From Candidatus Zipacnadia bacterium (GTDB taxonomy: Bacteria; Armatimonadota; Zipacnadia; Zipacnadales; UBA5352): a stretch of DNA of 64,000 nt. Made by a program: the position numbers and the translations under genes. Where the stretch lies: contig JALGSU010000017.1 in the NCBI GenBank assembly GCA_029821735.1, positions 107,406-171,405 on the forward strand, written 5' to 3'. Positions 4,391 through 19,488 of the stretch are shown here, one piece after another. The notes beneath the pieces were generated by a model. That model made no database searches. It saw only the letters and a list, made by a program, of their open reading frames with translations, and had not been told where the DNA came from. Position 1 is the stretch's first letter. Every line of letters begins with the position of its first letter.

Positions 4391-4486
4391 TGGGGCAGTT
4401 CTCTGGCCCCGCCCGTCGTTGCCTTTGCTGTCGCTTCTGCTGTCTCTTTCGTTTCTGTCCTTTCTGCCATTCCGGGAGACTCCACC

Positions 4487-5344
4487 GTGCCGCCGCCTGA
4501 CCGCAAACGCGAACTCGCTCAGTTCTTCACGCCGCCGCAGGTAGCCACGCTGGCGTGGGACCTGCTCACCTGCTTCGGCGCGACACCCGACAACGCGCTC
4601 ATCGCCGACCCCGCTTGCGGCGCGGGCGTGTGGTTGGCCGAAGCCCGACGCCGTGGCGCGCCTCGCGAGCTGCATGGCTGCGATCTCGACGAGCGCCAGA
4701 CCGCCGCGTGGCTGCGGTCTGGCCTGAGCGCCGACGAGGCCTGTGCCCTCGGCGTCAGCGACGGCCTGCTCCTCGACGCCGCTCCGCCCGGCTTCGATGT
4801 CGTCACCGGCAACCCGCCCTTCGGCATTACTCTCGATGGCTGCGACCCCGACCACCTCGCACGCGTCGCCGCCCGCCACCACCTGTACCTCGGCGCCGCG
4901 GGTTCGCGCACTCCGCCCCTCAACCCGACGCCCGGCGACCTCGACCGCCTGCGCCGCTTCCCACTCGAGCTGCTCTTCCTCGAGCGCTTCGTGGCGCTGT
5001 GCCGCCCCGGCGGCTGGATCGCCATCATCCTCCCCGAGGGCATCGCCGCCAACGCGCGCTGGCGCTACGTCCGCGAGTGGCTGCTGACCGGTCGCGCGAT
5101 GCACGCCGTCATCGCCCTGCCACGTGGCACCTTCGGCGCGCACGGCACTCAGGCCAGCACCTGCCTGATGATCCTGCGCAACGCCCCCGCCGCCGCCAAT
5201 CACCAGGCGATCCTGACCGGTCTCGACTCATGCACGCCAGCCGCCTGCGACGAACTCGTCTCCCGCGTCACCGCCGATGCCTTCCCGCCCGCGAGCGCCG
5301 CCGATCTCCCCGCCGGTCTCCTCCCGCCACCCCTGATGCGCTGA
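4487..5344 (+). CDS. N6-adenine-specific DNA methyltransferase (amino-MTase, gamma-like, N6_Mtase/Eco57I-type), apparently orphan
   Basis: FFTP motif, ADPACGAGVWL (motif I) and DVVTGNPPFG (motif IV). I chose the GTG at 4487 as start because the upstream ATG (4301) overlaps the previous gene and its terminator. Confidence 0.6.
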   Translation: MPPPDRKRELAQFFTPPQVATLAWDLLTCFGATPDNALIADPACGAGVWLAEARRRGAPRELHGCDLDERQTAAWLRSGLSADEACALGVSDGLLLDAAPPGFDVVTGNPPFGITLDGCDPDHLARVAARHHLYLGAAGSRTPPLNPTPGDLDRLRRFPLELLFLERFVALCRPGGWIAIILPEGIAANARWRYVREWLLTGRAMHAVIALPRGTFGAHGTQASTCLMILRNAPAAANHQAILTGLDSCTPAACDELVSRVTADAFPPASAADLPAGLLPPPLMR

Positions 5345-5422: not shown

Positions 5423-6736
5423 ATGACCACCGTCGCGGAGTTTGGCGCTCGCGGAGATGGCGTAACCGACGACACCGATGCGATCCAGCGCGCGGTCCGC
5501 GAGGGCGCGGGCCCGATCCGTCTCGACCGAGGCGACTACCTCATCACTCGCCCGATACTCGTCGACCTCGCCGACTGCGGTCGCCTGGGGATCGATGGCG
5601 GTGGCGTCGCCACGCTCGTCATGGCTGGCGCCGGTCCGGCGCTTGACGTCGTCGGCACCCATCACGGCAGCGCTTCGCCCGCCTCCTTCGACGCGGGTGT
5701 GATGGAGGGCCAGCGCATGCCCACCATCGCCGGCCTCGAGATCCTCGGCGCCCACGACCAGGCCGATGGCATCCGCCTCACCTGCACGCACGCCGCCACG
5801 CTCACCGGCGTGCAGATCCGCGAGTGCCGCCACGGCGTCCACCTCGTCGAGCGCGACCGCAACTTGATCATCAGCGACTGCCACATCTATCACAACCGCG
5901 GGGTGGGCGTCTTCTACGACGGGGTGAACATCCACCAGAGCAACATCACCGGCTCGCACATCAGCTACAACGCGGGCGGCGGCATCAAGCTCCTCGACGC
6001 CGAGGTGCGCAACATCCAGTTCACCGGCAATGACATCGAGTACAACTTCGACCAGGCCGCCGACGCCTCCGCTGACGTCTGGATCGACTGCGGCTCCACG
6101 TCCATCCGCGAGGGCGCGATCACCGGCAACACCATCCAGGCCGTCGCCAGCCCCGGTGGCGCGAACGTCCGCATCATCGGCGTCTGCGCGGATCGCCCCA
6201 CTGCCGCCGGCAACCTCACCGTCTCCGGCAACCTGATCTCCAGCCAGGAGACCAACGTTCACTTGGTCGAATGTCGCGGCGTAGTCGTCTCCGGCAATCA
6301 CTTCTTCAGTGGCCACCGGCACGCGGTGCACGTCGAGCGCTCGGAGTTCGTGAACATCGCCGGCAACGTCTTCGGCAACAATCCTGAGTATCGCGTCGAC
6401 ACTTTGGACGGGGTGCTGATCGAGGACAGCGTTGGCTGCTCGCTCACTGGTTGCGTCTTCGAGGATTGCCTCGCCGGTGATTCTGACACCGGTGGCACGG
6501 TTGACGTCCGCCGCAGCCGCTCGTTCCTGATGAGCGCCTGCCAGATTCACGACCCGTCTCACCGCGCCCTGTATATGTCCAACGTCCAGCGCGCAATCGT
6601 CTCTTCGTGCATGGTCTCCTGCAACGAGCCCGAGCCGACGATGGTTGAGTCCGCGCGCATGGCTGCCTGCTCGGACGTCGAACTCTCCGCCAACATGCTG
6701 CTCGCCGGCTCCAAGGGCGAGGTCACCGAGGTATAG
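5423..6736 (+). CDS. Right-handed parallel beta-helix protein of the pectate-lyase superfamily (GH28/GH55-like glycosidase or lyase)
   Basis: N-terminal FGARGDGVTDDTDAIQRAV, and repeated beta-helix rungs (NIxxSHISYNAGGGI, FTGNDIEYN, VSGNLIS, VSGNHF). GAAGGAG RBS. Confidence 0.65.
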   Translation: MTTVAEFGARGDGVTDDTDAIQRAVREGAGPIRLDRGDYLITRPILVDLADCGRLGIDGGGVATLVMAGAGPALDVVGTHHGSASPASFDAGVMEGQRMPTIAGLEILGAHDQADGIRLTCTHAATLTGVQIRECRHGVHLVERDRNLIISDCHIYHNRGVGVFYDGVNIHQSNITGSHISYNAGGGIKLLDAEVRNIQFTGNDIEYNFDQAADASADVWIDCGSTSIREGAITGNTIQAVASPGGANVRIIGVCADRPTAAGNLTVSGNLISSQETNVHLVECRGVVVSGNHFFSGHRHAVHVERSEFVNIAGNVFGNNPEYRVDTLDGVLIEDSVGCSLTGCVFEDCLAGDSDTGGTVDVRRSRSFLMSACQIHDPSHRALYMSNVQRAIVSSCMVSCNEPEPTMVESARMAACSDVELSANMLLAGSKGEVTEV

Positions 6737-6890
6737 CCGTCCGCCTTTGCCATTTTTGCCGTTCTCTGCGTCTCCGTGACTCTGCGGTTTGCCTTGGCCG
6801 TCCGCCTTCGCCTCGTCGTTCAGGTGGGGCCGGATTATGTCCGGATGCGATGCATCCGACATCCGGCCCGGTCGTTCTCACCCCAGAACC
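6737..6890. repeat. Structured intergenic repeat, copy A (GCCGTT-rich motifs plus a roughly 43-bp near-perfect palindrome GGCCGGATTATGTCCGGATGCGATGCATCCGACATCCGGCC)
   Basis: Nearly identical to 7655-7745, and shares gccgttctctgcgtctccg with 15470-15490. Confidence 0.5.
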
Positions 6891-7621
6891 GTCCACGGAT
6901 ATTCCGGTGCGATATGCGTCGCCGGCACGTCCGGGAATATCTCCTTCAGGTAATCCACCATCGCCATCATCGCCGGGATCTCGCCCATCCCGTGCGCGAC
7001 GAAGATCACTGGCACTCCCATCCCCAGCGCCCACAGCCCGTCGCGCGTCCACGAGTTCCCGTCGTCGGTCGCGAGGATCACGTCTGCTCCGAGGTCGTAC
7101 ATCTCTGGCAGTCGCGTGATCGCCCCGGTCCCCACTGCCATTCGGTGCACCACCTTGTCGGGGTCACCCACCACCAGCGCCGACTCCTGCCCGAGTTCCC
7201 GGATGCGCTCCACCACATGTGCGGCCAGCGCGCGCACGCTCATCCCGCCGGTCAGGCAGATGCGGTAGAAGCTCTCGGTCTCACGCGGTTCGCTCTCCAG
7301 CCTCAGCCATTTCGCCCACGAGTCCGGGATGCCCCAGACGGTCATACCCAGCTCATCGAGCAGCGCGCGCCGTTCGGCGAACGTCTTCTCGGTTGTCGGA
7401 TGTTCCTGATGCTGGTCGTAGAACATCCCCTCATGGCTGATGATGAGGTCAGCTCCGAACTCCGCTGCGGCTCGGATGACTTTGTCGGTCCCGATCCAGC
7501 ATGTGGCGATTCCGCTGACGTGGTTGTCGGGGTCCCCGTGCATGAACTGGTCGCAACTGTTGTCCCAGTCCACCCATGTCCCGACCGACTTGAAATGCTC
7601 ATAAACATCCCGCGCCGTCAT
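6878..7621 (-). CDS. Nif3/YqfO-family dinuclear metal-centre protein
   Basis: WVDWDNSCDQFMHGD and ADLIISHEGMFY motifs. I chose the ATG at 7621 because GGAGGA sits 6 nt upstream of it; the ORF track extends to 7654. Confidence 0.6.
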   Translation of the reverse strand: MTARDVYEHFKSVGTWVDWDNSCDQFMHGDPDNHVSGIATCWIGTDKVIRAAAEFGADLIISHEGMFYDQHQEHPTTEKTFAERRALLDELGMTVWGIPDSWAKWLRLESEPRETESFYRICLTGGMSVRALAAHVVERIRELGQESALVVGDPDKVVHRMAVGTGAITRLPEMYDLGADVILATDDGNSWTRDGLWALGMGVPVIFVAHGMGEIPAMMAMVDYLKEIFPDVPATHIAPEYPWTVLG

Positions 7622-7639
7622 GCTCATTCCTCCTGCCCA

Positions 7640-7960
7640 TCCTCCCGCACCCATCTGTCGCCTTTGTCTCGTCGTTCAGGGGGGGCCGGATTATGTTCGG
7701 ATGCGATGCATCCGACATTCGGCCCGGTCGTTGCCATGGCTGTTCGCCTTCGCCTTGGCCGTTTGGAGGGGCGGGGCTACGTCCCCGCCCGGCCTTTGCC
7801 GTGGCCGTCCGCCTTCGCCTTGGCCGTTTGGAGGGGCCGTGGCTTCAGCCCGGCCCGCCGTTCGCCTTCGCCCTCGCCGTACGGAGGGCCGATTCGTCAA
7901 AATCGGCCGGTCGTTGTCGTGGCGTTCAGCGTGTCACCGGCGCAGGCTCGTCCGTCCCGT
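7640..7960. repeat. Structured intergenic repeat cluster, copy B: the palindromic element (7676-7740) followed by three tandem ~60-bp units (7744-7800, 7807-7862, 7863-7915), each with a cgccttcgccttggccgtttggagggg core and a variable GC hairpin
   Basis: Direct reading. The hairpins are GGGGCGGGG/CCCCGCCC, GGGCCG/CGGCCC and GGCCGATT/AATCGGCC. ORFs 7620..8060 and 7693..7971 over this region are rejected. Confidence 0.55.
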
Positions 7961-7967
7961 CCTCACC

Positions 7968-10406
7968 CTAGACAATTCTCGCTTTGATGGGGTTCTCGAT
8001 ATTGGAGACTGCCTTCGACGCCGCATCTCGCACGTCGCCTTCCGGGTCGTCAGATCCTAGCCTCCGAAGGTCTTCCACGGCATCAGCCGCTCTTGTACCA
8101 CTTTCACCCAAGGCGAACGCAGCCCTGCTTCTGATCTTCCCGTTGATGTGTCGAAGTGCTTCGCGTAGCGGCTCCACGGCCGCCTCCCCAATCATCGCCA
8201 ACGCGATGGCAAATCCTGTCCATTTGGGGTCGTCCACGTTGCACAGCGCCTCAAGCAAAGGCGTGACGGCTTTCGGGCTATCGGTACAGCCCAGTGCTGT
8301 CGCAGCGTTGTAACGCAGGTCGGGGTCCTCAGAGCGAAGGAGGGGGACAAGAGGCTCCAGCACGACTTCCCCCAAGTTGCCCAAAACGTACGCCGCACGG
8401 AGGTTGAAGCCTCCGGCGTCTCTGTCCAAGGAGCCGTTCTCCAAGGCCTCCATGAGCCGATCCACGATCGCTTGGTCACTCTCACCCAGACGCGCCAGCG
8501 CGTGAGCAACCCAGGCGCGAACGTGAGGATCGTCGTCATTCAGTTTGCCGCGCAAGGGCTCCACCGCCCGCACATCGCCCAACTCACCCAGCGCCTCCGC
8601 CGCCCGCCATCGCACGCCCTCACTCTCGTCCCTATCCTCCAGCCTCTGGATGAGCGGGTCCACAGCCCGCGCGTCGCCCAACTGCCCCAGCGCCACCGCC
8701 GCGTGTACACGCACGTGCTCATTCTCGTCTTTGTCCATCAGCCTGCCGATAAGCGGCTCCACCGCCCGCGCGTCGCCCAAATCGCCCAGCGTCGCCACCA
8801 CGTTCGCGCGCACGTCCGCGCTCTCGTACTTCAGCCTTGCGATGAGCGGCCCCACTGCCCGCGTGTCGCCCAAATCGCTCAGCGCTATCGCCGCGTTCGC
8901 GCGCACTGCTGCCTCTTCATCCACCAGTACCTCGATCAGTGGCTCCAGTGCCCGCCTGTTACCCAAGGAACCTAGCGCCCGAGCCCCCTGCGCCCGCTTC
9001 TCGTAGTCCTCCGACTTGAGCCATGCCATCGCGTTGTCAAACGCATCGCCCGGCTCCCCGTCCGGTGCGGCGGCCACTGATGTGTGCGACAGATACTTCT
9101 CGGGGTCATCCTCATCGAGGGGCGGCGCTGTCTTGAGCAAGTCGATCAGACGGGTATCCCCGGCGGCCTCCATGTAATGTCTGGCGCGCTCTTCGCCGAT
9201 CTCACCCTTTGCTCGCCCCCGCCGCTCCAGCATGGCGGTCTGCTCTGCCTCCTCGCCGGGCTTCCGGGACGCTTCTTGGTCCTCGAACATCAGCCTCGGC
9301 AGCATTGCGTAGAGCTCGAAGGACTTCGGGAACGCCATCTGTATACCCAGCACCTTCGCCAGCTTGTTGGGGTCTAGCTCGGGCGCCACCTCAGCGAGGA
9401 AGCCATGCGTCATGCAGAATCGCTTGATGGCCCGCGGGTTCCGCCCGAATACCTTATCTATCAGCAAGTCGCGAAGAGTGTCGTTCACCATACGGTTCTT
9501 GCGCATCAACTTAGAGCAGTGGCGGAAGAAGGCCCTAGTCTTCTTGTCATTCAGTCGCGGCAGATAGAACGGAAGCTGCACGATCTTGTCAAGATACCGG
9601 TCCTTGATCTCGCGTGCTTCGTCGCCCTCCCGGCTGTACAACTCGCCGATCGCCTCCCTGACCATGTCCGGGTCCGCCGCGAGCACAAACACGCAGTCCT
9701 TCTGGTTCAGGTAGAGCTTGATGGTTTCCAGCACTTCGGGGATGACCTTACGCGGCGCCCGGTCGAGGTCGTCTATCAGGACGAGCACGCGCCCATTCTC
9801 TCCAAGCGCGGTCCTCAGGTCTTGCTTGAAATAGGTGCGGTACTGCTGTGCCAGACTGGCATCCGAGGAGAACAGTTTGTCGGCTGCCTTCCCGAGCCCC
9901 GCCGGCAACACGCCACCGGTCAGGACTCGGCCGACCAATGAGAGGAGCGCCAAGACGACTTGGCCCACAACTCCTCTCACGCCGGGGTTGCGGCGCCAGA
10001 ACGCCCGAAGCTTCAGCCACGAGTTGGTGGCATTATCCCTCCAAGCTTGCCCCTTCAGCAAGTCCCACCGCCAAGGCGGTGTGCACCAGAGACCCGCCCA
10101 CAGACTCGATGCCAGCAGCCGCTTCGCGTCCTCGGGCTTATCGCACTCCCACGGGTTGACGCGCACCACGCGCCATTTGCAGGTGCGCTCATCAGCGTAC
10201 TCATCCGAGAGCGCCGCATCCTCCAGCATGTTCAGGAAGCTGGTCTTGCCCGAGCCCCAGCTACCGAACACGCCCACCGTGAACGGCGTCTCCGCGCGCT
10301 CCATCGTGCGCAGCAGCCCGAAGATGTACCGCCCCAACTTCAGACGATCCTCCGCCAGCCCCTCGATTGCCTCGTCGCCCAGCCGCGCCCCGTTCTCGTC
10401 TGCCAT
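7968..10406 (-). CDS. KAP-family P-loop NTPase with a membrane insertion, fused to a C-terminal array of HEAT (PBS-lyase / E-Z type) repeats
   Basis: Walker A VGVFGSWGSGKTSFLNML, a hydrophobic insert (GVVGQVVLALLSLVGRVLTGGVLPAGL), and the KAP signature Walker B VLVLIDDLDR. The C-terminal half has at least 9 repeats of VRxxAAxALGxLGDxRAVEPLIxxL. Confidence 0.75.
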   Translation of the reverse strand: MADENGARLGDEAIEGLAEDRLKLGRYIFGLLRTMERAETPFTVGVFGSWGSGKTSFLNMLEDAALSDEYADERTCKWRVVRVNPWECDKPEDAKRLLASSLWAGLWCTPPWRWDLLKGQAWRDNATNSWLKLRAFWRRNPGVRGVVGQVVLALLSLVGRVLTGGVLPAGLGKAADKLFSSDASLAQQYRTYFKQDLRTALGENGRVLVLIDDLDRAPRKVIPEVLETIKLYLNQKDCVFVLAADPDMVREAIGELYSREGDEAREIKDRYLDKIVQLPFYLPRLNDKKTRAFFRHCSKLMRKNRMVNDTLRDLLIDKVFGRNPRAIKRFCMTHGFLAEVAPELDPNKLAKVLGIQMAFPKSFELYAMLPRLMFEDQEASRKPGEEAEQTAMLERRGRAKGEIGEERARHYMEAAGDTRLIDLLKTAPPLDEDDPEKYLSHTSVAAAPDGEPGDAFDNAMAWLKSEDYEKRAQGARALGSLGNRRALEPLIEVLVDEEAAVRANAAIALSDLGDTRAVGPLIARLKYESADVRANVVATLGDLGDARAVEPLIGRLMDKDENEHVRVHAAVALGQLGDARAVDPLIQRLEDRDESEGVRWRAAEALGELGDVRAVEPLRGKLNDDDPHVRAWVAHALARLGESDQAIVDRLMEALENGSLDRDAGGFNLRAAYVLGNLGEVVLEPLVPLLRSEDPDLRYNAATALGCTDSPKAVTPLLEALCNVDDPKWTGFAIALAMIGEAAVEPLREALRHINGKIRSRAAFALGESGTRAADAVEDLRRLGSDDPEGDVRDAASKAVSNIENPIKARIV

Positions 10407-10471
10407 CGCTCGCCCCGCCCATTGCCAAGATGTCGCACCTCATCCCCAGACTTCCCCGCCGCCCGCGCCAT

Positions 10472-10490
10472 CCCTGCCACCTTGGCAGGG
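10472..10490. promoter_or_regulatory. Perfect 7-bp inverted repeat CCCTGCC-ACCTT-GGCAGGG in the divergent KAP / M28 intergenic region
   Basis: Seen in sequence. It sits between the divergent starts at 10406 and 10559. Confidence 0.25.
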
Positions 10491-10558
10491 GCCTTGCCCC
10501 CAACGGCGAAACTGCCTCCCGTAGCCTCACCGGTCGCGCACACGAGAGGGATGGTCTC

Positions 10559-12613
10559 ATGTTCCGCAAGGTCTACGAGTTGCTGGCCCGCGAGGTCTCC
10601 GGCGAGAACACCCGCAACATGGCCGCCGACATCTGGCGCCACGACCGTACCTGTTCCTTCGCCGAGCACTACAAGTCCGCCCGCTACTGCGTCGACCGCC
10701 TCACCGAGGCCCGCGCCTCCGACGTCGAGATCATCTCTTTCCCGGCCACTGGCAAGGCCGTCTACGGAGCCTTCCGCCTCCAGCGCGCCTGGGACGGCCA
10801 CGATGCCGAGTTGCACATCACCGCCCCCGAGTCCGCCGCCGTCCGCCTCTGCTCATACCGTGACGACCCCTGGTCGCTGGCCCAGGGCAGCACGCCCACG
10901 CCCGACGGTGGCATCGAGGCCGAGGTCGTCGCCATCGAGGGCGGCGCGGCCGAGAAGGACTACAAGGGCGTCGACGTCAAGGGCAAGTTCGTCTTCAGTT
11001 CCGCCGCGCCGCGCGGGATCATGGACCTCGCGAAGAAGAAGGGCGCGGTCGGCCTCATCACCGACTTCATGCCCACCAACCCCGCCACCCGGCCGACGCC
11101 CATGGACCTGCCCGACGCCCGCAACTGGACCACGCTCCGCCCCGAGGGCAAGCTCCCCGCCTTCGTACTCACCCCCCGCCAGGGCCAGCACATGCGCAAG
11201 CTCATCGCCGACAACGCGAAGACCGGCGGCGTGCGCCTGCGCGCCTGGGTCGACGCCCGCGCATACGATGGCGAGCACGAGATGGTCTCCGCGCGCATCC
11301 CCGGCAAAGGGAAGACCGCCAGCGAGGAGGTCGCGCTCGTCGCTCACCTCTACGAGCCCGGCGCGAACGATAACGCGTCCGGCGCAGCGGTCCTGCTCGA
11401 GACCGCCCGCGCACTCGGCGCCCTCATCAAGGTCGGCACGCTCCCCCGCCCGCGCCGCAGCATTCGCCTCTGGCTCACTCACGAGTTCCAGTCGCTCTCG
11501 GCCCTCCTTTACGAGCAGCCCGAGGCCATCGAGCGCGTCGTCGCCTGCGCGAACGTCGACATGGTTGGCGAGGATCAGGGCGCTTCCGGCGCCTCGCTCA
11601 TGTTCCAGGACGGCCCCGATTCCCTGCCCTCGTATCTCAACCACTACACCCACGCGCTGATGGATTACTTCCAGTCCCGCCCCTACACCTGGGGAAATGT
11701 CGACTCCACTGAGACGCGCATGGCGACCGTCAACACGCCCTTCTGGATGAACGATAACTTCATCTCCGACCCCTCTGTGGGCATCCCCTCGATCGCCCTC
11801 ATTGCCTGGCCGGACACCTACTATCACACCAACGAAGACACGCCCGAGAGGATTTCGACCGACTCCATCGGCCGCGTCGCGATCCTCTCTGCCACCTGGG
11901 CTTACGTCCTCGCCAGCATGGGGGAGAGCGAGGTGCTGGCCCTCGCCGAGACCGTTGCCGAGCGCGCCGATCAGTTCATGGGCCGCGCCGTCCAGCGCCG
12001 CCTCGACCACTACCGCGCCGCGCTCGAGAAGCTCGCCGCCGATGCTCTCGCTGACGACGGTCCAGCCACGCTCACCGAGGCCGCCGACGATCTCCGCGAC
12101 CGCCTGCCGTACCTGGCCGCCCGCGAGTTGGCGGCGTTCGAGTCGCTCACTTCGCTGCTCACTGAGGCCCAGGCGAAGCGCCACGCATCCCGCCTCGCGC
12201 AGGTCCGTGCCGAGGTCGAGGAAGCGGCGGCACGCTGGCAGTCGCGGGCCACACGCAGGCTCGCGGACCTCGCCGGTGAGTTCGATCTCCCCGCGCCCGA
12301 GCCCACACCCGACAAGCCCCTGACGGCTGCCGAGAAGCGCGCGGCCGCGATCGTGCCTTACCGCAAGATCCGGGGGATTGTGCAGCACGAGAACTTGCCG
12401 AAGAAGGGTCGCGAGGCGATTGCGAAGGCGTCGAAGGGTGGCGTGCCGCGCCTGATGCTATTCTGGGTGGATGGCGAGCGGAGCTTGCTGGACATCTGCC
12501 GATTGACGAAGATCGAGGGTGATGGCCCGGCGATTGACCCGTCCCGCGCGGTGAAGTGGGCCGAAGCGATGAAGCTCGCCGGCGTCATCACCTTCCGCCG
12601 GGCGAAGTCTTAG
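10559..12613 (+). CDS. M28-family zinc peptidase with a long C-terminal helical extension
   Basis: HLYEPGANDNASGAAV and NVDMVGED metal-ligand motifs. The start at 10559 is supported by a GAGAGGGA RBS; the 10367 extension is an Arg/Pro-rich GC artefact. Confidence 0.7.
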   Translation: MFRKVYELLAREVSGENTRNMAADIWRHDRTCSFAEHYKSARYCVDRLTEARASDVEIISFPATGKAVYGAFRLQRAWDGHDAELHITAPESAAVRLCSYRDDPWSLAQGSTPTPDGGIEAEVVAIEGGAAEKDYKGVDVKGKFVFSSAAPRGIMDLAKKKGAVGLITDFMPTNPATRPTPMDLPDARNWTTLRPEGKLPAFVLTPRQGQHMRKLIADNAKTGGVRLRAWVDARAYDGEHEMVSARIPGKGKTASEEVALVAHLYEPGANDNASGAAVLLETARALGALIKVGTLPRPRRSIRLWLTHEFQSLSALLYEQPEAIERVVACANVDMVGEDQGASGASLMFQDGPDSLPSYLNHYTHALMDYFQSRPYTWGNVDSTETRMATVNTPFWMNDNFISDPSVGIPSIALIAWPDTYYHTNEDTPERISTDSIGRVAILSATWAYVLASMGESEVLALAETVAERADQFMGRAVQRRLDHYRAALEKLAADALADDGPATLTEAADDLRDRLPYLAARELAAFESLTSLLTEAQAKRHASRLAQVRAEVEEAAARWQSRATRRLADLAGEFDLPAPEPTPDKPLTAAEKRAAAIVPYRKIRGIVQHENLPKKGREAIAKASKGGVPRLMLFWVDGERSLLDICRLTKIEGDGPAIDPSRAVKWAEAMKLAGVITFRRAKS

Positions 12614-12614
12614 C

Positions 12615-12935
12615 GTTGAGTGCCGATTTCGTTGCCATGGCCGTTAACCGTAGGGCTTCCAGCCCGACAATCAATTGGTCCCGCTGCATTTGCCGTCGCT
12701 GTGGTCGTATGGCGGGCGGGTCTTTCTCGGGCACCGTAGCTTTAGCGAAGGTGTCAGACCCGCCGGTCGTCGCCGTATGCCGTGTGGAGGGGCGGGACCC
12801 CGTCCCCGCCCGGCCGTTGCTGTCGCCCCACCTTGCAGGACTAACCCTCTCGCCGTCGAATATCCTACTGGCGGAGTGCAGCGGGGGGACTGTCGGAGTC
12901 ATTCCGACCGAGCGGACAGTTCTGGTGGCCATGAG
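12615..12935. repeat. Structured intergenic repeat, copy C (gctttagcgaaggtgtcagacccgcc ... gccgtgtggaggggcgggaccccgtccccgcccggccgttgc)
   Basis: Shares the GGAGGGG-hairpin unit with copy B, and the ctttagcgaaggtgtcagacccgcc motif with 17680-17725. Confidence 0.45.
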
Positions 12936-12946
12936 GAGTGTTTGTC

Positions 12947-15391
12947 ATGAAGCGTTTCATCGTCGCGATGTTGCTCGTCGTTCTCGTCGTCCCCTGCAGC
13001 GCGCAGTTCGATATCAAGATCCCCGGACCTGGCGACTTGGAGATCGATATCAAGATCCCTGGTCTGAGCAAGATACTCCGCGCGGAGCCCGCTCTGGGAA
13101 CCAGCATTGAGGACGCCCTGACCGGCGTTGCCTTCCTCGATGACTATGACCCGGCCGTGCTCATCCCCATGGTCGAGGCCCCGCGCGTCAGCGACGCTGG
13201 TTTTGCGCTCGCCCCCGGCGCCTGGTATGCCTCCATGGAGAGCTACTGCCTCCACGCCGGCGTGCATGGCCCCAGTAGCGGCGAGGGCTATCTCTGGGCT
13301 CCGCTCAAGGGCCCGTTGGCTGACGAAATCACTGACATCATGAGCAACGCGGCCCTGCACCCCGAGGTCCCGCAGCGCGATATCCAGGTCCTCGTATGGG
13401 GCCTGCTGGCGCGAACTAAGATCAGCGACATGTCCGACCCGTTGCGGCAGGCGGCCCGAGCCCTGCTCACCTCCAAGCAGATTCGCGGCCTCAACGGTGG
13501 CGCGCTGTCGCGGATCCCCGAGAAGCTCTTCGACCGCGCGTTTGGTGAGTTGCCTCCTGCGGTCCGCGACATCATGGAGGCCGAGGCGCGCATCCGCAAC
13601 ATGATCTCCGGCGAGATCAGCGACTTCAACGCCATTGAGGGCATCGCCGTCGTGCCTGGCGATCCGCCCTTCGACCCCAACGCGGCCTACCTCCCCCGAG
13701 GTCGCTGGTCATACGTCCCCGGTGGTTTCTTCACCCGCTACCTGCCCGATGGCTATGACCGCACTGACACGACCGTCGTTGTGCCCGCGCAGGTCACCTA
13801 CCAGCAGGATGCGCTCGGGCGCATCACAGCCATGGAGGACCGGGCCGGCAACCGTGTCGAGGCCAGCTACAATGACACGATCGCCCCGGCCACCGTCGCG
13901 GGCGACGCTGCCGTTCTCGGCTACGCCTTCGAGTCCCTCCGCCTCATGGCCCCCGACTCTGCCGCTCCCGGTGGCGTTCGCGAGATGACGCTCACCGACG
14001 TCGGCTGGACCCTTGTCGGCACCGCCTCCGGCGCAGGCCAGGCGCAGGCGGGCGCCGCGCCCTACGCTGATCTCGCCGAGCGATACGCCTGGGCCGTTCA
14101 GCACGCTGCTGAATTGGGCCCACTCGTCGCCAGCGTGAAGCAGGCTGGCGAGGCCCCCGCCTCTGATGCTGACACCGCCGCGGCGGTCGCGCTCATGGCC
14201 AACCTCGCCAACTTCCACCAGGCCCTCCAGCGCGCCACGGCATCGACCACCGCCGAGCCCTGGATGCACGCCCCCGTGGAAGTGGCCCGCCAGGCCTGGA
14301 TGGCCGCCCTCAGCTCCGTCAGCGACGGCCGCGGCGCTCCCGAGGTCCAGCAGGCCAGCATCGAGGCCCGCCAGCCGGTCCGGTTGGCCTCCACGTTGCT
14401 CTCACCGATCATCTTCTCTGGCGGCGAGGTGCGCTATTCCGGCGGCGGGCTGAAGCCCTTCCGCCCGGGCGGTGGCGCGGCGCAGCCCACCGGCGGGCGT
14501 CAGCGGCTCGGCCAGTCCCACCGCCCGCGCGAGCTCAAGCCCTTCAAGCCTGACGAAGACGACGATGACGATGACGATGACGATGACAGCGGCAACGGTA
14601 AGGGCGTCCTCAACAAGGCCAAGAAAGCCATCGGCTGGATAAGCAAGGGCAAGCAGGTCGTCGATGCAGTCACCAATCCCGTCGGCACCATTGCCGGGCA
14701 GGTCGGCTTTGGCATCCAGGGCCAGATGCAGTCGGGTTACTTCGACTGGCTCTTCGGCACCTCTGCCAAGATATCGAAGGCACTCGGCGGCGACCCGCCC
14801 CGCCCCGATTTTGACATCATCGAGCCTCTCACGCAGGTCGCTATTGGCTCGCCGCAGGACTTTGGGCAGATACCGGCCGCTCGCGCGGCTGCCCTCAATG
14901 ACTTGCGCTTTGCTCTGGACAATCTCGTCGCCACTTCGCGTGTCGCGAAGATCTCCCTCGACCGTCTTGGCGGGGCCATGGAAGCCGGGAATGCCGAGTG
15001 GGAGCAGAATCAGGCGATGGCTTTCATGCAGCAGAAGCGCACCACTGGCGTGTGGTTCACCGAGACCGCCCGCTGCCTCGATGCCTTGCTCGATGAACTC
15101 GCGGCGGAGGGCATCAACGATATCCAGATCACGTCCGACGCGTATGCGGCCTACCAGGCGCGCCTGCAGGCAACCGGCTTCACTGCTGACGAGTTGCAGG
15201 CGGCTCAGATGGCTGGTCTGACTGGCGCCGAGATCGCGGCCGAGTTGCAGTATCGGCTGTCGCTGAATCCTGCGTCTGAGGCTGGCAGTCTGATCGAGGG
15301 AGGTCGCGAAGCCGCCGAGGTCATGCGTGCCTTGGGTGCGCGCTGGGAGTCTTTGCCCGACAGCCACCTCGAGGACATCCTGGGCGAGTAA
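12947..15391 (+). CDS. Secreted hypothetical protein with an internal poly-Asp tract (D x10 at nt 14557-14592)
   Basis: Signal peptide MKRFIVAMLLVVLVVPCSAQ. GAGGAG RBS 8 nt upstream of the 12947 ATG. I recognised no family. Confidence 0.5.
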   Translation: MKRFIVAMLLVVLVVPCSAQFDIKIPGPGDLEIDIKIPGLSKILRAEPALGTSIEDALTGVAFLDDYDPAVLIPMVEAPRVSDAGFALAPGAWYASMESYCLHAGVHGPSSGEGYLWAPLKGPLADEITDIMSNAALHPEVPQRDIQVLVWGLLARTKISDMSDPLRQAARALLTSKQIRGLNGGALSRIPEKLFDRAFGELPPAVRDIMEAEARIRNMISGEISDFNAIEGIAVVPGDPPFDPNAAYLPRGRWSYVPGGFFTRYLPDGYDRTDTTVVVPAQVTYQQDALGRITAMEDRAGNRVEASYNDTIAPATVAGDAAVLGYAFESLRLMAPDSAAPGGVREMTLTDVGWTLVGTASGAGQAQAGAAPYADLAERYAWAVQHAAELGPLVASVKQAGEAPASDADTAAAVALMANLANFHQALQRATASTTAEPWMHAPVEVARQAWMAALSSVSDGRGAPEVQQASIEARQPVRLASTLLSPIIFSGGEVRYSGGGLKPFRPGGGAAQPTGGRQRLGQSHRPRELKPFKPDEDDDDDDDDDDSGNGKGVLNKAKKAIGWISKGKQVVDAVTNPVGTIAGQVGFGIQGQMQSGYFDWLFGTSAKISKALGGDPPRPDFDIIEPLTQVAIGSPQDFGQIPAARAAALNDLRFALDNLVATSRVAKISLDRLGGAMEAGNAEWEQNQAMAFMQQKRTTGVWFTETARCLDALLDELAAEGINDIQITSDAYAAYQARLQATGFTADELQAAQMAGLTGAEIAAELQYRLSLNPASEAGSLIEGGREAAEVMRALGARWESLPDSHLEDILGE

Positions 15392-15544
15392 TCTCGGCCG
15401 CTGCCTTCGCCGTCACTCCCCTCTCCTGAGCCGGCGCTTGCGTCGGCCAGGGAGAGGGGGCCGTCCGCCCCCGCCGTTCTCTGCGTCTCCGCGGTTTTCC
15501 GTTGCTGGAAGGATTCCCCCCTCCCGTCCCCGAAGCCCGTACCC
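15392..15544. repeat. Structured intergenic repeat, copy D (CCCCTCTCC...GGAGAGGGG hairpin plus ccgccgttctctgcgtctccg)
   Basis: Shares the gccgttctctgcgtctccg motif with copy A. Confidence 0.4.
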
Positions 15545-17551
15545 ATGACCGGTGCGCGCCACACGCTGACCCCGAGGTCGATCATCATCGGCGCCATTGG
15601 CGCGGCGGTGGTCTGCTTCGTCATTGGTTGGGGCGAGATGGTCGTTGGCGCGATCCAGATAGCCATCTGCCAGTTCAATCCCGCCGCGATAGGCCTTCTT
15701 CTCATCGTGGTCTTGGCCAACCTCGCCGTCGGCTGGCTCGCCCCGCGAATGGCCCTGCGCCCTCACGAGATCATCATCATCTACCTGATGATTCTTGCCG
15801 CCGCGCTGACCATGAGTCGCGGTCTCCTCGAGCGCTGGATACCCGCGCTGATCGCCGTCAACTACTACGCCAATCCCTCCAACCACTGGCAGGAACTCTT
15901 CTTCGAGCACATTCCCCAGTGGGCCGTTCCCTTCGATGTCGAAGGCGGCACCGAGCAGCCCCTGGCGCGCTACTTCTACGAGGGTCTGCGCCCGGGCACG
16001 CCCCTGCCCATCCGCGAGTGGGCTCCCGCACTCATCGCCTGGTTGCCGCCCGTGCTCTCCATGTTTGTCGCTTACTTCTGCATGGCCTCACTCATCCGCC
16101 GCCAGTGGGTGGACAACGAGAAGCTCTCCTTTCCGCTGACCACCTTGCCCGTTGAGATGGCTGTGCACAGTCACTGGTCGAAGTCGCTCTTCGGCAACTG
16201 GCTGATGTGGATCGGCTTCGCCATCCCCTTCCTCATCTTTACGCTCAACGGTCTGCACACGCTCTTCCCGCAGATCCCCGAAATCCCCGTGGTCTATCGC
16301 CTCAACCGGATGGTCTTCAACACCATGGGCCGCCCGTGGCGAGACCTTGGCAACACCACCGCCTACTGCTCGATGGCCGCTGTCGGCTTCGCGTATTTCC
16401 TCCCCGCGCAGGTGCTCTTTTCGCTCTGGTCCTTCTACGTGATCTCCCGCGTGCAGAACATCACCTTCTCGGCCTTCGGCGCTGCGCCCCAGGCCATGCC
16501 GCTCTTCCCGACCAAGCTGTGGAACGGTTACCAGGTCATGGGCGCGTATGTCGTCCTCGCGGGCTACATGGTCAGGTCCGCCTGGCCGCATCTGCAGCGC
16601 ACCTGGGCGGCCGCCACTGCCGGCGCGGAGCTCCCTCCCGAGGACGCCGTCCCCAGTCGTTACGGTGGCCAGTCCGAGCGCGCCCGCCCGGCTCTGCCCC
16701 CGAGGGTCGCGCTCATTGGCCTCGGCGTATCGGCGGTCGTCGCGGCGTGGTGGTTCACGTTGCTTGGCATGGCCCCGTGGATGGCCGTGCTCGAGGTCGT
16801 CGCCTTCCTCGGCGTGGTCTGCCTGGTGATGGCCCGCAGCGTCGGCGAGGCCGGTCTGCTCATGACCGAGACCAGCTTCCGCCCTGTCGACATGGTCCGC
16901 CTGGTCAGTCCCATGAAGGCGCTCGGCGCTCCGACGCTCACTGCTCTCTCGCTGGCTGATGCGGTATTCACCCGCGACTTGCGCGGCAACTTGCTCTCGA
17001 CGCTCCTCGATGGCCTGAAGATGAGTGACCTCACGGACCTCGACCGCCGCCACTTATTCGCGGCGATCGCGATCGCGCTCGTGGTCGCGTTGGGGGTTGG
17101 CGGGTGGTTGCACTTGGCCTTGCCGTATGCCAATGGCGGGGTGGGGATGTATAGCTACGTGTATCGGGGCAACCCGTTGCTCGGCTTCCGCTATTTCGCG
17201 CCGGTGCTCGAGGGCGGCGATGAGTATGATGCGCGCTTGCCGATCTTCTTCGGATCGGGAGTAGCGGTGGCCTTGGGGTTGAGTTGGATGCGGACCCAGC
17301 ACGTCTGGTGGCCGTTGTCTCCGCTGGGTTTGGCGCTATCGGGTTCGTGGTCGATGATAGTCTTCTGGTTCCCGATGTTGATTGCGTGGTTGATCAAGGG
17401 CGGGGTAGTCCGCTACGGTGGCATGAAGTTGTATTCGAATCTCCGCCCGTTCTTCTTGGGGATGATCTTGGGCGAATTCTCTCAGGCGGTGATTTGGGCG
17501 ACGATCTGCGGCGTCTACCGCACCCCCGCCCCCTTCTTCCCCTGGCCATAG
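15545..17551 (+). CDS. Large polytopic integral membrane protein (about 14 predicted TM helices), function unknown
   Basis: Long hydrophobic segments throughout. The RBS is weak, so the start is uncertain. Confidence 0.5.
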   Translation: MTGARHTLTPRSIIIGAIGAAVVCFVIGWGEMVVGAIQIAICQFNPAAIGLLLIVVLANLAVGWLAPRMALRPHEIIIIYLMILAAALTMSRGLLERWIPALIAVNYYANPSNHWQELFFEHIPQWAVPFDVEGGTEQPLARYFYEGLRPGTPLPIREWAPALIAWLPPVLSMFVAYFCMASLIRRQWVDNEKLSFPLTTLPVEMAVHSHWSKSLFGNWLMWIGFAIPFLIFTLNGLHTLFPQIPEIPVVYRLNRMVFNTMGRPWRDLGNTTAYCSMAAVGFAYFLPAQVLFSLWSFYVISRVQNITFSAFGAAPQAMPLFPTKLWNGYQVMGAYVVLAGYMVRSAWPHLQRTWAAATAGAELPPEDAVPSRYGGQSERARPALPPRVALIGLGVSAVVAAWWFTLLGMAPWMAVLEVVAFLGVVCLVMARSVGEAGLLMTETSFRPVDMVRLVSPMKALGAPTLTALSLADAVFTRDLRGNLLSTLLDGLKMSDLTDLDRRHLFAAIAIALVVALGVGGWLHLALPYANGGVGMYSYVYRGNPLLGFRYFAPVLEGGDEYDARLPIFFGSGVAVALGLSWMRTQHVWWPLSPLGLALSGSWSMIVFWFPMLIAWLIKGGVVRYGGMKLYSNLRPFFLGMILGEFSQAVIWATICGVYRTPAPFFPWP

Positions 17552-17750
17552 CGCGCCGTCTCTTCCTTTGCCGTTGCTTCCGCCGTTCTCCTTGCCGTAC
17601 GGAGGGGCCGCGGCTTCAGCCCGGCCCGCCGTTGCCGTTGCCGTATGGAGGGCGCGGCTTTCCTTGGGCACCGACTTGTGGGCCGGAGCTTTAGCGAAGG
17701 TCCAAGCTTCAGCGAAGGTGTCAGACCCGCCCCGCCGTTGCCGTTTGCCT
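17552..17750. repeat. Structured intergenic repeat, copy E (two gccgtacggaggggccgcggcttcagcccggcccgccgtt-type units plus a duplicated agcgaaggt...cagcgaaggtgtcagacccgcc motif)
   Basis: The hairpin unit is almost identical to unit 2 of copy B. Confidence 0.5.
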
Positions 17751-19469
17751 TCACCGGTCCGCCTCTCGCCTCTGCGCCTCTTGCTCTATAGCCGCCTTCG
17801 CTCGCGGGTCCTTGTCCTGGTAGCGCAGGAGTCTCATGATCTCCCCACGCGGCTTGCCCTCCGCTCCATCCAGCCCCGCCACCAGCGCATCGATGGCGTC
17901 GCCCTTCATTTGACCCAGGGCGCTGGCGGCCTCGCGCTTGACGTTCCTCTCCTCATGCCCGAGCAGTTTCACGAGCGGGCCCGCCGCGGCAGGCCCTATC
18001 GCCACAAGGGCCGCCCCGACGGCTGAATTGCGGCCGGATTCTTTGTCGCTCATCTCGTCAATCAGCGGGCCGATGGCCCGCGCATCGCCCAGCTCGCCAA
18101 GCGCCTTGATCGCCGCGATGACGGCCCGCGCATCTCCGAGTTGACCCAGCGAAGTGGCCGCATTCGCGACGGTGACCCGGTCCTCTCGTTGCAGCGCAGA
18201 GATCAGCTTCTTCACGGCCGACCCGTCGCCTATGGCGCCAAGCGCCTTCACTGCGGCCTGCTGCACCGACTTCTCGGGATCGTCAAGCCCTGCCATCAGC
18301 GCAGGCACTGCGGGCCCATACTTGAGCTTGCCGAGCGAGTCCGCCGCATACGCACGAACCTGCCTGTCGGCAGCATCGTCCTCCAGCACGCCCAGCAGCG
18401 CCGCGCCGGCGCGCTGATCGCCGATCTTGCCCAGCGCCCGGGCCGCAAGCCACCCCGTATCAGTCTTCAGTGCCTCGATCAGCAGGTCGATGGCCTCCGG
18501 ATCTCCCGTCGAACTCAAAGCGTATACGCCCCATTCGCCCCGCGCCTGTCCCCGCTGCCATGCCCCGATCAGGGCCGACGTAGCGGCGGGGCCGAACGCT
18601 TCGATGGCCGCGAAGGCCGCATTGCCCACGACGCGGTGCGGGTGATCCAGCGCACGAATGATCGTCTCCAGTGCGCGGGCGTCGCCCAATCTCCCCAGCG
18701 CTTGAACTGCAGCCCCGGCCGCCTTCGCCTCTTTCTCGACGCGAGCGGTCTCAGCCTTGCGGCGCTCGGCCTCGGCCATGTCCCTGCCGAGAGGCGTCGC
18801 GACGGCGGGAGCCATGGCCGCCACTGCGTGCCGCCGATGCGCCGCCATCAGCGGGGCGAAGGCTGCAACGATCGCCGTCGGGTCCTCCTTGCCGATGGCG
18901 CTCAGCGCATTCGCGGCTGCCCCCACCGTGACCGCATCATCTTCCTCGAGTGCCGCGATCAGGGCGGGGACGGCCGGACGCCCCATCCCCGCCAGTGCGA
19001 AGCCCGCGCCTACCACGGCGCCCTCCTCCCTGCTGCGAAACACCTCGAGCACGCGCTCCAATACCGCCTCGTCCGAATCGCCCAGCCTGCCCAGGCTGAT
19101 GCCGGCGGAGCGCGCCCGATTGGGGTCGTCATCACTGAGCTTTGCGATGAGGAGGTCCACCTCGGTCTTGGTGGGCTGCCAAAGAGCTTCCGGTGCCGGG
19201 CTGCCCTCGTCCTCCAGGCGTGCGCTCAGCACGTCTCGCACCCCCGTCGTCACCCACACCAGGAAGATCCCCACCGCCACGAGCAGCACGAACTTCCGCA
19301 TAATGGGGTATGACTCCGGCTCCGGTTGCGGGGCCGAAGGCCCGACCACACGGTAAGACTGACCGCATTCGCACCGGTAAACGCTCCCGGCGGCCCCCGC
19401 TTCGACCTCGCGCTCTTGCCCGCATCGTGGACACTTAACTGTAATCATAATCCCGCTTCCTCCGCTCAT
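17751..19469 (-). CDS. Zinc-ribbon / single-TM / HEAT-repeat protein, paralog 1 (the most diverged)
   Basis: N-terminal VKCPRCGQ...YRCECGQ zinc ribbon, then TM helix FVLLVAVGIFLVWV, then more than 10 PBS-lyase HEAT repeats. The C-terminus has the LLRYQDKDPRAKAAIEQEA motif shared with the paralogs. An alternative start lies at 19448. Confidence 0.7.
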   Translation of the reverse strand: MSGGSGIMITVKCPRCGQEREVEAGAAGSVYRCECGQSYRVVGPSAPQPEPESYPIMRKFVLLVAVGIFLVWVTTGVRDVLSARLEDEGSPAPEALWQPTKTEVDLLIAKLSDDDPNRARSAGISLGRLGDSDEAVLERVLEVFRSREEGAVVGAGFALAGMGRPAVPALIAALEEDDAVTVGAAANALSAIGKEDPTAIVAAFAPLMAAHRRHAVAAMAPAVATPLGRDMAEAERRKAETARVEKEAKAAGAAVQALGRLGDARALETIIRALDHPHRVVGNAAFAAIEAFGPAATSALIGAWQRGQARGEWGVYALSSTGDPEAIDLLIEALKTDTGWLAARALGKIGDQRAGAALLGVLEDDAADRQVRAYAADSLGKLKYGPAVPALMAGLDDPEKSVQQAAVKALGAIGDGSAVKKLISALQREDRVTVANAATSLGQLGDARAVIAAIKALGELGDARAIGPLIDEMSDKESGRNSAVGAALVAIGPAAAGPLVKLLGHEERNVKREAASALGQMKGDAIDALVAGLDGAEGKPRGEIMRLLRYQDKDPRAKAAIEQEAQRREADR

Positions 19470-19488
19470 CCGGCCCTTACGCCTCTCC

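What the first reader, a model, noticed from the sequence alone, without database searches (positions are those of the whole stretch)
6737..17750. A family of structured intergenic repeats (GCCGTT-rich motifs, a GGAGGGG core and variable GC hairpins) at five gene boundaries
Five intergenic regions (6737-6890, 7640-7960, 12615-12935, 15392-15544, 17552-17750) share motif blocks. These are a core like gccgt(t/a)(t/c)ggagggg followed by a different perfect GC hairpin in each unit, the motif gctttagcgaaggtgtcagacccgcc, and the motif gccgttctctgcgtctccg. Copy B has three tandem ~60-bp units. They sit mostly at convergent gene ends, which is consistent with REP/BIME-like elements acting as terminators or mRNA stabilisers. 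They could also be MITE-like, or the processing sites of an unknown ncRNA family.
Basis: seen in the sequence. Interest (0 to 1): 0.6.

Follow-up and report, generated by a model that had tools for sequence, protein, structure and literature searches.

The report
REP-type palindromic repeats, Armatimonadota genome
Five gene boundaries in this uncultured Armatimonadota genome carry short GC-rich hairpin repeats that belong to a REP family, and in related genomes the same kind of repeat flanks its own REP-associated transposase gene, so this is a new family of a well-known class of bacterial repeat.

Summary
Nine head-plus-hairpin units, plus two shared non-palindromic modules, lie in five intergenic regions between 6.7 and 17.8 kb. 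All are on the + strand and none occurs elsewhere in the 64 kb. A unit is a run of GYCGTN hexamers, a GGAG tag, a stable GC hairpin whose stem opens GGGCSG and closes CSGCCC, and a GSYCGTT tail. Five hairpin subtypes recur.

The same subtypes form an array at an unrelated locus in a Candidatus Zipacnadia (Armatimonadota) MAG. Related units occur in several metagenome contigs. A strain about 96% identical differs by exactly one 51-nt unit in one array.

The decisive result comes from three related contigs. Each carries a REP-associated tyrosine transposase (RAYT) gene that passes the curated NCBIfam cut-off and is closest to E. coli TnpA-REP (4ER8). Each gene is flanked by GGAG-GGGGCCG...ATCCGGCCC units. 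A pattern taken from those flanks hits the window only at two of its units (0.01 expected).

I therefore read this as a RAYT-associated REP/BIME family. It is unusual in having GGAG where GTAG is expected, and in its strictly head-to-tail arrays. No RAYT lies in the window. Any terminator or mRNA-stabiliser role is inferred, not shown. MITE, integron attC and known ncRNA readings were not supported. Interest is moderate to low.

The parts
6737..6802 (+). Non-palindromic module M1 (CCGTCCGCC...GCCGTTCTCTGCGTCTCCG...GCGGTTT) followed by GCCKTN hexamers. It lies just after the stop codon of the beta-helix gene 5423-6736.
   Evidence: The exact 19-mer is shared with 15473-15491. The scan flags a weak stem plus T-run at 6774-6796.
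6803..6876 (+). Unit U1, subtype He. Head GTCGTTCAGGTG, nested hairpin 6827-6869 (GGGCCGGAT...ATCCGGCCC), tail GGTCGTT.
   Evidence: 93% identical to 7659-7732 (D18). MFE -29.4 kcal/mol, top 0.1% of random windows. Matches the pattern taken from RAYT flanks. Identical in strain L129.
7659..7732 (+). Unit U2, subtype He. Hairpin 7683-7725.
7743..7797 (+). Unit U3, subtype Ha. Head GCCGTTTGGAG, hairpin 7769-7790 (GGGCGGGG ctacgt CCCCGCCC).
   Evidence: The identical hairpin occurs in L001.
7808..7862 (+). Unit U4, subtype Hb. Hairpin 7834-7856 (GGGCCGtGGC ttca GCCCGGCCC), tail GCCGTT.
   Evidence: The same subtype occurs at 17605-17627 and in L001.
7861..7915 (+). Unit U5, subtype Hc. Hairpin 7887-7908 (GGCCGATT cgtcaa AATCGGCC), tail GGTCGTT.
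12653..12665 (+). Small hairpin GGGCT tcc AGCCC, preceded by GCCGTT hexamers. Possibly a degenerate unit.
   Evidence: It is weak (top 2.7% of random windows), so membership is uncertain.
12700..12773 (+). Unit U9, subtype Hd. Head GTCGTATGGCG, long hairpin 12715-12764 (GGCGGGTCT...AGACCCGCC) whose apex carries the conserved 26-mer, tail GGTCGTC.
   Evidence: The same subtype occurs in L001.
12779..12822 (+). Unit U6, subtype Ha. Hairpin 12790-12811.
   Evidence: (D12).
15417..15460 (+). Long palindrome Hf (CTCCCCTCTCC..GCCGGCG cttg CGTCGGC..GGGAGAGGGGG).
   Evidence: MFE -36.4 kcal/mol, top 0.03% of random windows. In strain L128 one inner-stem pair that is G-T in the window is a Watson-Crick A-T pair. 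Membership in the family is inferred from context only.
15461..15504 (+). Module M1, second copy (CCGTCCGCC..GCCGTTCTCTGCGTCTCCGCGGTTTTCC).
   Evidence: An 8-nt indel separates it from strain L128. The scan flags a weak stem plus T-run at 15481-15504.
17552..17593 (+). Hexamer leader (GCCGTY-type repeats) after the stop codon of the DUF6785 gene.
   Evidence: Read directly from the sequence.
17594..17633 (+). Unit U7, subtype Hb. Hairpin 17605-17627.
17640..17743 (+). Unit U8, an Hd unit with an internal duplication of the apex motif. Its 3' arm is fused to that of a lost Ha unit, and its hairpin is imperfect.
   Evidence: Strain L128 keeps the extra 51-nt unit, and the deletion lies between two CCCGCC repeats. 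The fold is not better than background.

Best explanation
The repeats are REPs (repetitive extragenic palindromes) of a RAYT-associated family, assembled into BIME-like mosaic arrays in an uncultured Armatimonadota genome.

Each unit is a run of GYCGTN hexamers, an unpaired GGAG tag, a GC-rich imperfect palindrome and a GSYCGTT tail.

The proposed mechanism is inferred from what is established for E. coli TnpA-REP and the IS200/IS605 family. A single-copy, domesticated HUH/Y1 transposase (RAYT) recognises the hairpin plus its 5' tag on single-stranded DNA, then cuts and rejoins there. This seeds copies into intergenic DNA downstream of genes.

Once seeded, arrays grow and shrink by slippage or recombination between the near-identical stem arms. 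One such event is shown here: a one-unit deletion between strains.

When transcribed, the stable hairpins at gene 3' ends probably act as orientation-independent barriers to 3'-5' exonucleases, or as weak terminators. That step is inferred and not shown.
For: - The family is real and strand-consistent in the window.
- The same hairpin subtypes, with the same head and tail, form an array at a non-homologous locus in MAG JALGSS010000082 (Candidatus Zipacnadia, Armatimonadota). Only the repeats align between that locus and the window.
- Related units occur in independent metagenome contigs L027, L102, L048/L064, L051, L058, L092, L115 and L020.
- The closest relatives that lack the units in the flanks recovered here have 72-83% identical DUF6785 orthologues. 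This suggests the family is restricted to certain lineages.
- A strain 96% identical shows a one-unit (51-nt) indel and an 8-nt indel in the arrays.
- RAYT link in L131: the gene 2228-2746 scores 83.9 bits against NF047646 'REP-associated tyrosine transposase' (cut-off 80). Its best PDB match is 4ER8 TnpA-REP, with the HUH motif and the Y-x3-NPV motif aligned. It is flanked by two inverted units, GCCGT(T)AATGGAGGGGCCGAATGCC...GCATCCGGCCC, each with a hexamer leader.
- Two further RAYT homologues are flanked in the same way: L132 (82% identical) and L133 (47% identical). L133 has the same inverted doublet on both sides of the gene.
- The pattern GGGGCCGN{15,45}ATYCGGCCC, taken from those flanks, hits the window only at U1 and U2, with 0.01 expected.
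- All arrays lie downstream of at least one gene's 3' end, and none lies in the divergent promoter region 10407-10558. This matches the published distribution of REPs (PMC3733652).
Against: - No Y1/RAYT gene lies among the roughly 40 genes of the window or in the 19.7 kb of the L001 contig.
- The tag is GGAG, with variants GGTG, GGGG and GGCG. It is not the GTAG that defines classical REPs.
- All adjacent units in the window, L001 and L027 are head-to-tail. That arrangement is rare in described REP families, where inverted dimers dominate (PMC3733652).
- Only subtype He matches the RAYT-flanking units closely. A profile built only from RAYT flanks ranks U1 and U2 first in the window, but weakly (E 0.035 and 0.3).
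- Subtypes Ha, Hb, Hc and Hd were not seen next to a RAYT.
- Genome-wide copy number is unknown. Within the window the units are confined to 11 kb.
- No transposition event, transcript or RNA 3' end was observed.
Confidence: 0.78

Rival explanations
1. The repeats are a transposase-independent minisatellite or local-duplication family. The units would arise and spread only by replication slippage, unequal recombination and gene conversion among neighbouring intergenic regions. The resemblance to RAYT-flanking REPs would then be convergent GC-hairpin similarity.
For: The arrays are strictly head-to-tail with hexamer runs. The only dynamics observed are a one-unit deletion between 6-nt microhomologies and an 8-nt indel. 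All copies in the window lie within 11 kb. No RAYT lies in the window.
Against: The same subtypes occur at an unrelated locus in a different genome. The specific tag, stem base and leader are shared with the units flanking three RAYT genes, which local slippage cannot explain.
Confidence: 0.1
2. The units are primarily functional RNA elements: I-shaped terminators without a U-tract, or 3'-end stabilisers selected at these genes. Sequence similarity would be maintained by selection rather than by mobility.
For: Every array follows at least one gene's 3' end. The hairpins are very stable. Module M1 has a weak stem plus T-run on the sense strand after two + strand genes. One inner-stem position of palindrome Hf is G-T in the window and A-T in L128, so pairing is kept only if G-U pairs count.
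Against: Orthologous genes in relatives lack the units. Arrays are antisense to the upstream gene in L001, L027 and window region 7622-7967, and sense elsewhere. The units have no U-tract, although the genome has a canonical terminator. The zero-substitution runs between strains extend into coding DNA, so they reflect patchy divergence and not selection on the repeats. This role is compatible with the REP reading as a secondary effect.
Confidence: 0.07
3. The units are attC-like recombination sites that delimit gene cassettes in a variable region, in the manner of an integron.
For: Same-strand structured repeats lie at five consecutive gene boundaries. The NIF3 gene is bracketed by 93%-identical direct 74-nt repeats (D18). 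The 814-aa gene between the M28 peptidase and DUF6785 genes is absent in an 80% relative, where those two genes are adjacent.
Against: No integrase or recombinase lies in the window. The flanks are direct GCCGT repeats and not the inverse R''/R' core sites of attC. Several units stand in tandem with no ORF between them. DUF6785 has different neighbours in every relative even where no units are present. The units associate with RAYT genes.
Confidence: 0.03
4. The units are MITEs, non-autonomous derivatives of a DDE insertion sequence.
For: They are short, intergenic and multi-copy.
Against: They have no terminal inverted repeats, no inverted copies between loci and no consistent target-site duplication beyond the repeated GCCGT hexamers.
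Confidence: 0.02

Closest known systems
REP/BIME elements with their RAYT (REPtron), e.g. E. coli REP with TnpA-REP (PDB 4ER8), and the GTAG families of Di Nocera et al. 2013 (PMC3733652) and Nunvar et al. 2010 (PMC2817692)
   Same: Short GC-rich imperfect palindromes with an unpaired conserved tetranucleotide directly 5' of the stem. Several stem and loop subtypes occur within one family. They are intergenic, downstream of genes, and absent from the divergent promoter region. They form mosaic clusters with other short motifs. The same repeat type flanks a RAYT gene that carries the HUH and Y-x3-NPV motifs.
   Different: The tag is GGAG and not GTAG; published variants are GYAG, GYRG, GTRG, GTMG and GTGG. 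Adjacent units in the window, L001 and L027 are all head-to-tail, whereas inverted (HH or TT) dimers dominate described families. A run of GYCGTN hexamers precedes each unit. Some apices carry long conserved inserts. The host phylum is Armatimonadota, for which the paper library returned no REP description.
REPINs (inverted REP doublets) of Pseudomonas fluorescens
   Same: In L133 the RAYT is flanked on both sides by an inverted doublet of two hairpin units with the tags on the outside.
   Different: No inverted doublet exists in the window.
CGTC-tagged REPs (PMC3733652)
   Same: Small tagged palindromes. The GYCGT flanks superficially resemble a CGTC tag.
   Different: CGTC REPs have 8-9 bp stems that start with A-T pairs, 4-5 nt loops and a CCA tail, and they are not linked to a transposase. 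None of this fits here.
MIRU-type intergenic tandem repeats of Mycobacterium
   Same: Head-to-tail tandem units of 45-65 nt in intergenic regions, with unit number varying between strains.
   Different: MIRUs are oriented with the operon and carry small overlapping ORFs. They are not tagged palindromes and have no RAYT link. This comparison rests on my own knowledge and was not tested.

Membership tests
REP (RAYT-associated repetitive extragenic palindromes) | Short imperfect palindrome that can form a stable stem-loop | tested here: met
   Stems of 8-10 bp with loops of 3-33 nt. Nine of 11 hairpins fall in the top 2% of random windows by folding energy.
REP (RAYT-associated repetitive extragenic palindromes) | Conserved unpaired GTAG tetranucleotide at the 5' end of the palindrome | tested here: not met
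   An unpaired conserved tetranucleotide is present at that position, but it reads GGAG. It is GGAG in 6 of 9 window units and in every unit in L001, L027, L131, L132 and L133. The window variants are GGTG, GGGG and GGCG.
REP (RAYT-associated repetitive extragenic palindromes) | The same repeat type flanks a RAYT gene (REPtron) | tested here: met
   Met in three related contigs, L131, L132 and L133. Not met in the window itself, which has no Y1_Tnp gene. The rest of this genome could not be searched.
REP (RAYT-associated repetitive extragenic palindromes) | High copy number dispersed over the genome (usually more than 100 copies) | not testable with these tools
   Only 64 kb of this genome is available. 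It holds 9 units in 5 intergenic regions, all within 11 kb. There are 4 units in 19.7 kb of the L001 contig. Dispersal to non-homologous loci in two genomes is shown.
REP (RAYT-associated repetitive extragenic palindromes) | Extragenic, mostly between convergent or co-directional genes | tested here: met
   Two convergent and three co-directional regions carry units, and none lies in the divergent region 10407-10558. The L001 array lies between co-directional genes.
BIME (mosaic REP clusters) | REPs in regularly alternating orientation, separated by conserved linker motifs | tested here: not met
   Conserved linker modules exist (M1 and the hexamer runs). However, all units are co-oriented and head-to-tail, and no inverted copies were found.
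Integron attC sites | Inverse core and core sites (RYYYAAC ... GTTRRRY) bracketing an imperfect palindrome, next to an integron integrase | tested here: not met
   The flanks are direct GCCGT repeats, as read from the sequence. No integrase lies in the window.
MITE | Terminal inverted repeats and target-site duplication | tested here: not met
   No terminal inverted repeats beyond the unit hairpins themselves.
Any Rfam RNA family | Covariance-model match | tested here: not met
   No match at gathering score in the window. In 6600-18000 at E up to 1, the only hit is a sub-threshold Guanidine-II match inside a gene.

The most novel reading that the evidence does not exclude
This would be a distinct branch of REP/RAYT systems. 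The transposase would read a GGAG tag instead of GTAG, and would deposit units head-to-tail next to a GYCGTN hexamer target. That would build same-strand arrays that mark, and perhaps cause, the gene-order breakpoints seen between relatives in this variable region. REP arrays would then act as cassette-shuffling hotspots in Armatimonadota.
Probability: 0.15. Interest if true: 0.6.

Novelty: new member of a known kind. Interest (0 to 1): 0.33.

Why it matters
REP/RAYT systems have been studied almost entirely in Proteobacteria. This finding gives a sequence-defined REP family in the poorly known phylum Armatimonadota, with candidate cognate transposases in hand.

Its tag reads GGAG where the supposedly near-universal tag is GTAG, and its arrays are head-to-tail. 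That makes it a natural test case for how RAYTs recognise their substrates and how arrays grow.

In practice, these repeats explain assembly breaks and unit-number variation between strains in such MAGs. They should also be masked when looking for regulatory RNAs or terminators. It does not change the current understanding of REPs.

Tried and rejected
- **Metagenome scan.** The tandem-core pattern mostly returned unrelated coding tandem repeats (GREEGR-type and similar).
- **Viral contigs.** Three subtype patterns gave no match.
- **Whole-region RNA folding.** Z-scores were not significant on the + strand, because GC-rich DNA folds well anyway. Only the per-unit comparison with genomic background was informative.
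- **Perfect-stem counting.** 21 were found against about 14 in shuffles, so the count does not discriminate.
- **Purifying selection.** Regions 12614-12946 and 17552-17750 have 0 substitutions against strain L128. However, substitution-free runs of 973, 635 and 474 nt also cover coding DNA. Divergence is patchy and the argument was dropped.
- **Orientation versus GC skew.** The sense strand is the C-rich strand in the window, L001, L027 and L092, but not in L058, L064 or L048. This is inconclusive on short contigs.
- **GC3-based gene calling.** It mis-called the strand of the TPR gene in L001. This was corrected by translation.
- **Retrieving the window's own contig.** The 185-kb contig could not be fetched by exact protein look-up, so the rest of the genome could not be scanned for a RAYT.
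- **Formal covariation test.** MAFFT put subtypes Ha and Hb one column out of register at the 3' arm. I therefore ran no formal test on alignment A5 and built no covariance model.
- **Profile from RAYT-flanking units only.** It ranked U1 and U2 first in the window, but only weakly (E 0.035 and 0.3). The explicit pattern was clearer.


Full report
**What is there**

The window has 64-66% G+C. Pfam domains and the nearest homologues place it in Armatimonadota.

Between 6.7 and 17.8 kb there are five intergenic regions. With the source's gene starts they are 6737-6877, 7622-7967, 12614-12946, 15392-15544 and 17552-17750. They separate these genes:
- a beta-helix protein gene (+)
- NIF3 (-)
- a KAP-NTPase/HEAT protein gene (-)
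- an M28 peptidase gene (+)
- an 814-aa gene of unknown function (+)
- a DUF6785/DUF6784 protein gene (+)
- a HEAT-repeat protein gene (-)

- The core GCCGTWYGGAGGG occurs six times, always on the + strand, against 0.42 expected.
- The 26-mer occurs twice.
- The 19-mer occurs twice.
- A 74-nt segment is repeated at 93% identity on both sides of NIF3.

None of the other roughly 18 intergenic gaps in the window contains these motifs. A maximum-sensitivity nhmmer profile of 17 units hits only these regions and only the + strand.

**Anatomy**

A unit reads as follows:
- a run of degenerate GYCGTN hexamers
- the tag GGAG (variants GGTG, GGGG, GGCG)
- a GC-rich hairpin whose stem opens GGGCSG and closes CSGCCC
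- a tail GSYCGTT

The sense strand is T-rich and A-poor.

The hairpins are not all different. Five subtypes recur:
- Ha, GGGCGGGG..CCCCGCCC, at 7769 and 12790
- Hb, GGGCCGYGGC ttca GCCCGGCCC, at 7834 and 17605
- Hc, GGCCGATT..AATCGGCC, at 7887
- Hd, GGCGGGTCT..AGACCCGCC, with a conserved 32-nt structured apex that contains the 26-mer, at 12715 and 17650
- He, GGGCCGGAT..ATYCGGCCC, with a nested inner stem, at 6827 and 7683

Nine of 11 hairpins are more stable than 98% of random same-length windows of this DNA. A non-palindromic module (M1, which holds the 19-mer) and a long palindrome (15417-15460) complete the mosaic.

There are no inverted copies and no terminal inverted repeats. There is no Rfam match. 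No T-run follows the GC hairpins, whereas a textbook terminator with a T-run sits at 4357-4395.

**Elsewhere**

The 26-mer found one genome record, a Candidatus Zipacnadia (Armatimonadota) MAG. There, an array of four units of subtypes Ha, Hd and Hb plus a degenerate one lies between a TPR gene and a URO-D-family gene. The heads and tails are the same as in the window, but the array is antisense to both genes. Only the repeats align between that locus and the window. The family is therefore dispersed and not a local duplication.

The metagenome scan was mostly wasted on coding tandem repeats. It still recovered true relatives:
- L027, with at least five tandem 44-nt units
- L102, L051 and L058
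- a group sharing GGGGCCGnAT..ATcCGGCCCC with complementary but different apices: L048/L064, L092, L115 and L020

**Relatives and strains**

Orthologues of the DUF6785 gene at 72-83% identity have no units in their flanks, and each has different neighbouring genes. In one relative the M28 peptidase and DUF6785 genes are adjacent, so the 814-aa gene that the repeats bracket here is absent.

A strain 96% identical (L128 and L129, JGI 3300033143) is syntenic with the window:
- Its region matching 12614-12946 is identical.
- Its region matching 15392-15544 differs by an 8-nt indel and six substitutions.
- Its region matching 17552-17750 has exactly one more 51-nt unit.

The window's version of that last region is a deletion between two CCCGCC stem arms. 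This explains the imperfect hairpin of unit U8.

Substitution-free runs between the strains extend well into coding DNA. The identity of the repeats is therefore not evidence of selection on them.

**The link to a transposase**

I fetched relatives of the URO-D gene next to the L001 array. One of them, contig L131, carries a Y1-transposase gene.

That protein passes the curated cut-off of NCBIfam NF047646, 'REP-associated tyrosine transposase' (83.9 bits against 80). It is closest to E. coli TnpA-REP (4ER8), with the HUH and Y-x3-NPV motifs aligned.

The gene is flanked by two inverted units, GCCGT(T)AATGGAG-GGGGCCGAATGCC...GCATCCGGCCC. Each is preceded by GYCGTN hexamers.

Two further RAYT homologues show the same arrangement:
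- L132 (82% identical) has one unit on each side.
- L133 (47% identical) comes from the same sample series as the window's relatives. It has the same inverted doublet on both sides of the gene.

In these three loci, every occurrence of GGAGGGGCCG lies within about 110 nt of the RAYT gene.

A pattern taken only from those flanks, GGGGCCGN{15,45}ATYCGGCCC, matches the window at exactly two places, units U1 and U2, with 0.01 expected. It also matches the metagenome arrays listed above.

**Interpretation**

These are REPs of a RAYT lineage, arranged as BIME-like mosaics.

What is shown:
- the family, its structure and its subtypes
- its dispersal to unrelated loci in two genomes
- its absence from the recovered flanks of the 72-83% relatives
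- unit loss by microhomology between strains
- the REPtron arrangement in three relatives

What is inferred from established work on TnpA-REP and IS200/IS605:
- that the RAYT recognises the GGAG tag plus hairpin on single-stranded DNA and disperses the units
- that the transcribed hairpins protect or terminate mRNAs

What does not fit the classical definition (PMC3733652):
- the tag is GGAG and not GTAG
- adjacent units are always head-to-tail
- a hexamer run precedes each unit

What could not be tested:
- genome-wide copy number
- whether this genome has its own RAYT; none is in the window

**Verdict**

The finding is a new family of a known kind of element, in a phylum for which the paper library holds no REP description. 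Interest is moderate to low.

Noticed in passing
window 4357-4395 (+): A canonical intrinsic terminator (12-bp GC stem, 5-nt loop, T-run) lies inside the mechanically listed ORF 4301-5344. The real start of the N6-methylase gene must therefore be downstream of it. It also shows that this organism uses terminators with a U-tract.
   Followed up: partly
window 7968-10406 and 17751-23926 (-): A cluster of paralogous HEAT/PBS-lyase-repeat protein genes, one of them fused to a KAP P-loop NTPase domain. They carry internal 93-99-nt repeats and share conserved C-terminal segments (D2-D8).
   Followed up: no
window 33662-33985, inside ORF 33158-34102 (-): About ten copies of an 18-nt-period tandem repeat inside a 314-aa ORF that has no Pfam match (D1).
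   Followed up: no
window 1-64000: GC skew of the + strand is negative from 1 to about 26 kb and positive from about 36 kb onward. The cumulative curve bottoms out near 24-26 kb. Between 1.6 and 17.5 kb the skew runs against the coding strand. This might mark a replication-related switch. All REP units lie on the C-rich strand of that left arm.
   Followed up: partly
window 37042-38358 and 43051-44352 (+): Two paralogous AMP-binding (phenylacetate-CoA-ligase-like) genes bracket a TPP/ferredoxin oxidoreductase pair and a protein with a copper amine oxidase N-terminal domain (D20).
   Followed up: no
window 23927-24652: A 726-nt stretch of lower G+C (0.57) in which my filter found no long ORF with high third-position G+C. 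Relatives carry small PIN-domain genes in comparable places, so this may hold small toxin-antitoxin-type genes.
   Followed up: no
window 5.4-24 kb compared with L122, L124, L125 and L127: Gene order around the DUF6785 gene differs in every relative recovered. For example, M28 peptidase and DUF6785 are adjacent in L124/L125, and response-regulator and histidine-kinase genes replace the NIF3/KAP/M28 block in L127. This is a plastic region, whether or not REP units are present.
   Followed up: partly
L095 6489-6944 and L112 1093-1979: Unrelated metagenome arrays share a CCGTACGGAGGGGG head, but there CGGAGGG is itself the 5' arm of the hairpin (..tttatCTCCCTCCG). This may be another tagged-palindrome family.
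   Followed up: no
L128 1-107: The first 107 nt of this strain contig align to window 12478-12584, while positions 94 onward align from window 12028. This is probably an assembly artefact at the contig end.
   Followed up: no
window 9947-10008 (+): A sub-threshold Guanidine-II riboswitch match (22.7 bits against a gathering score of 32, E 0.46) inside the KAP/HEAT gene, antisense to it. Probably chance.
   Followed up: no
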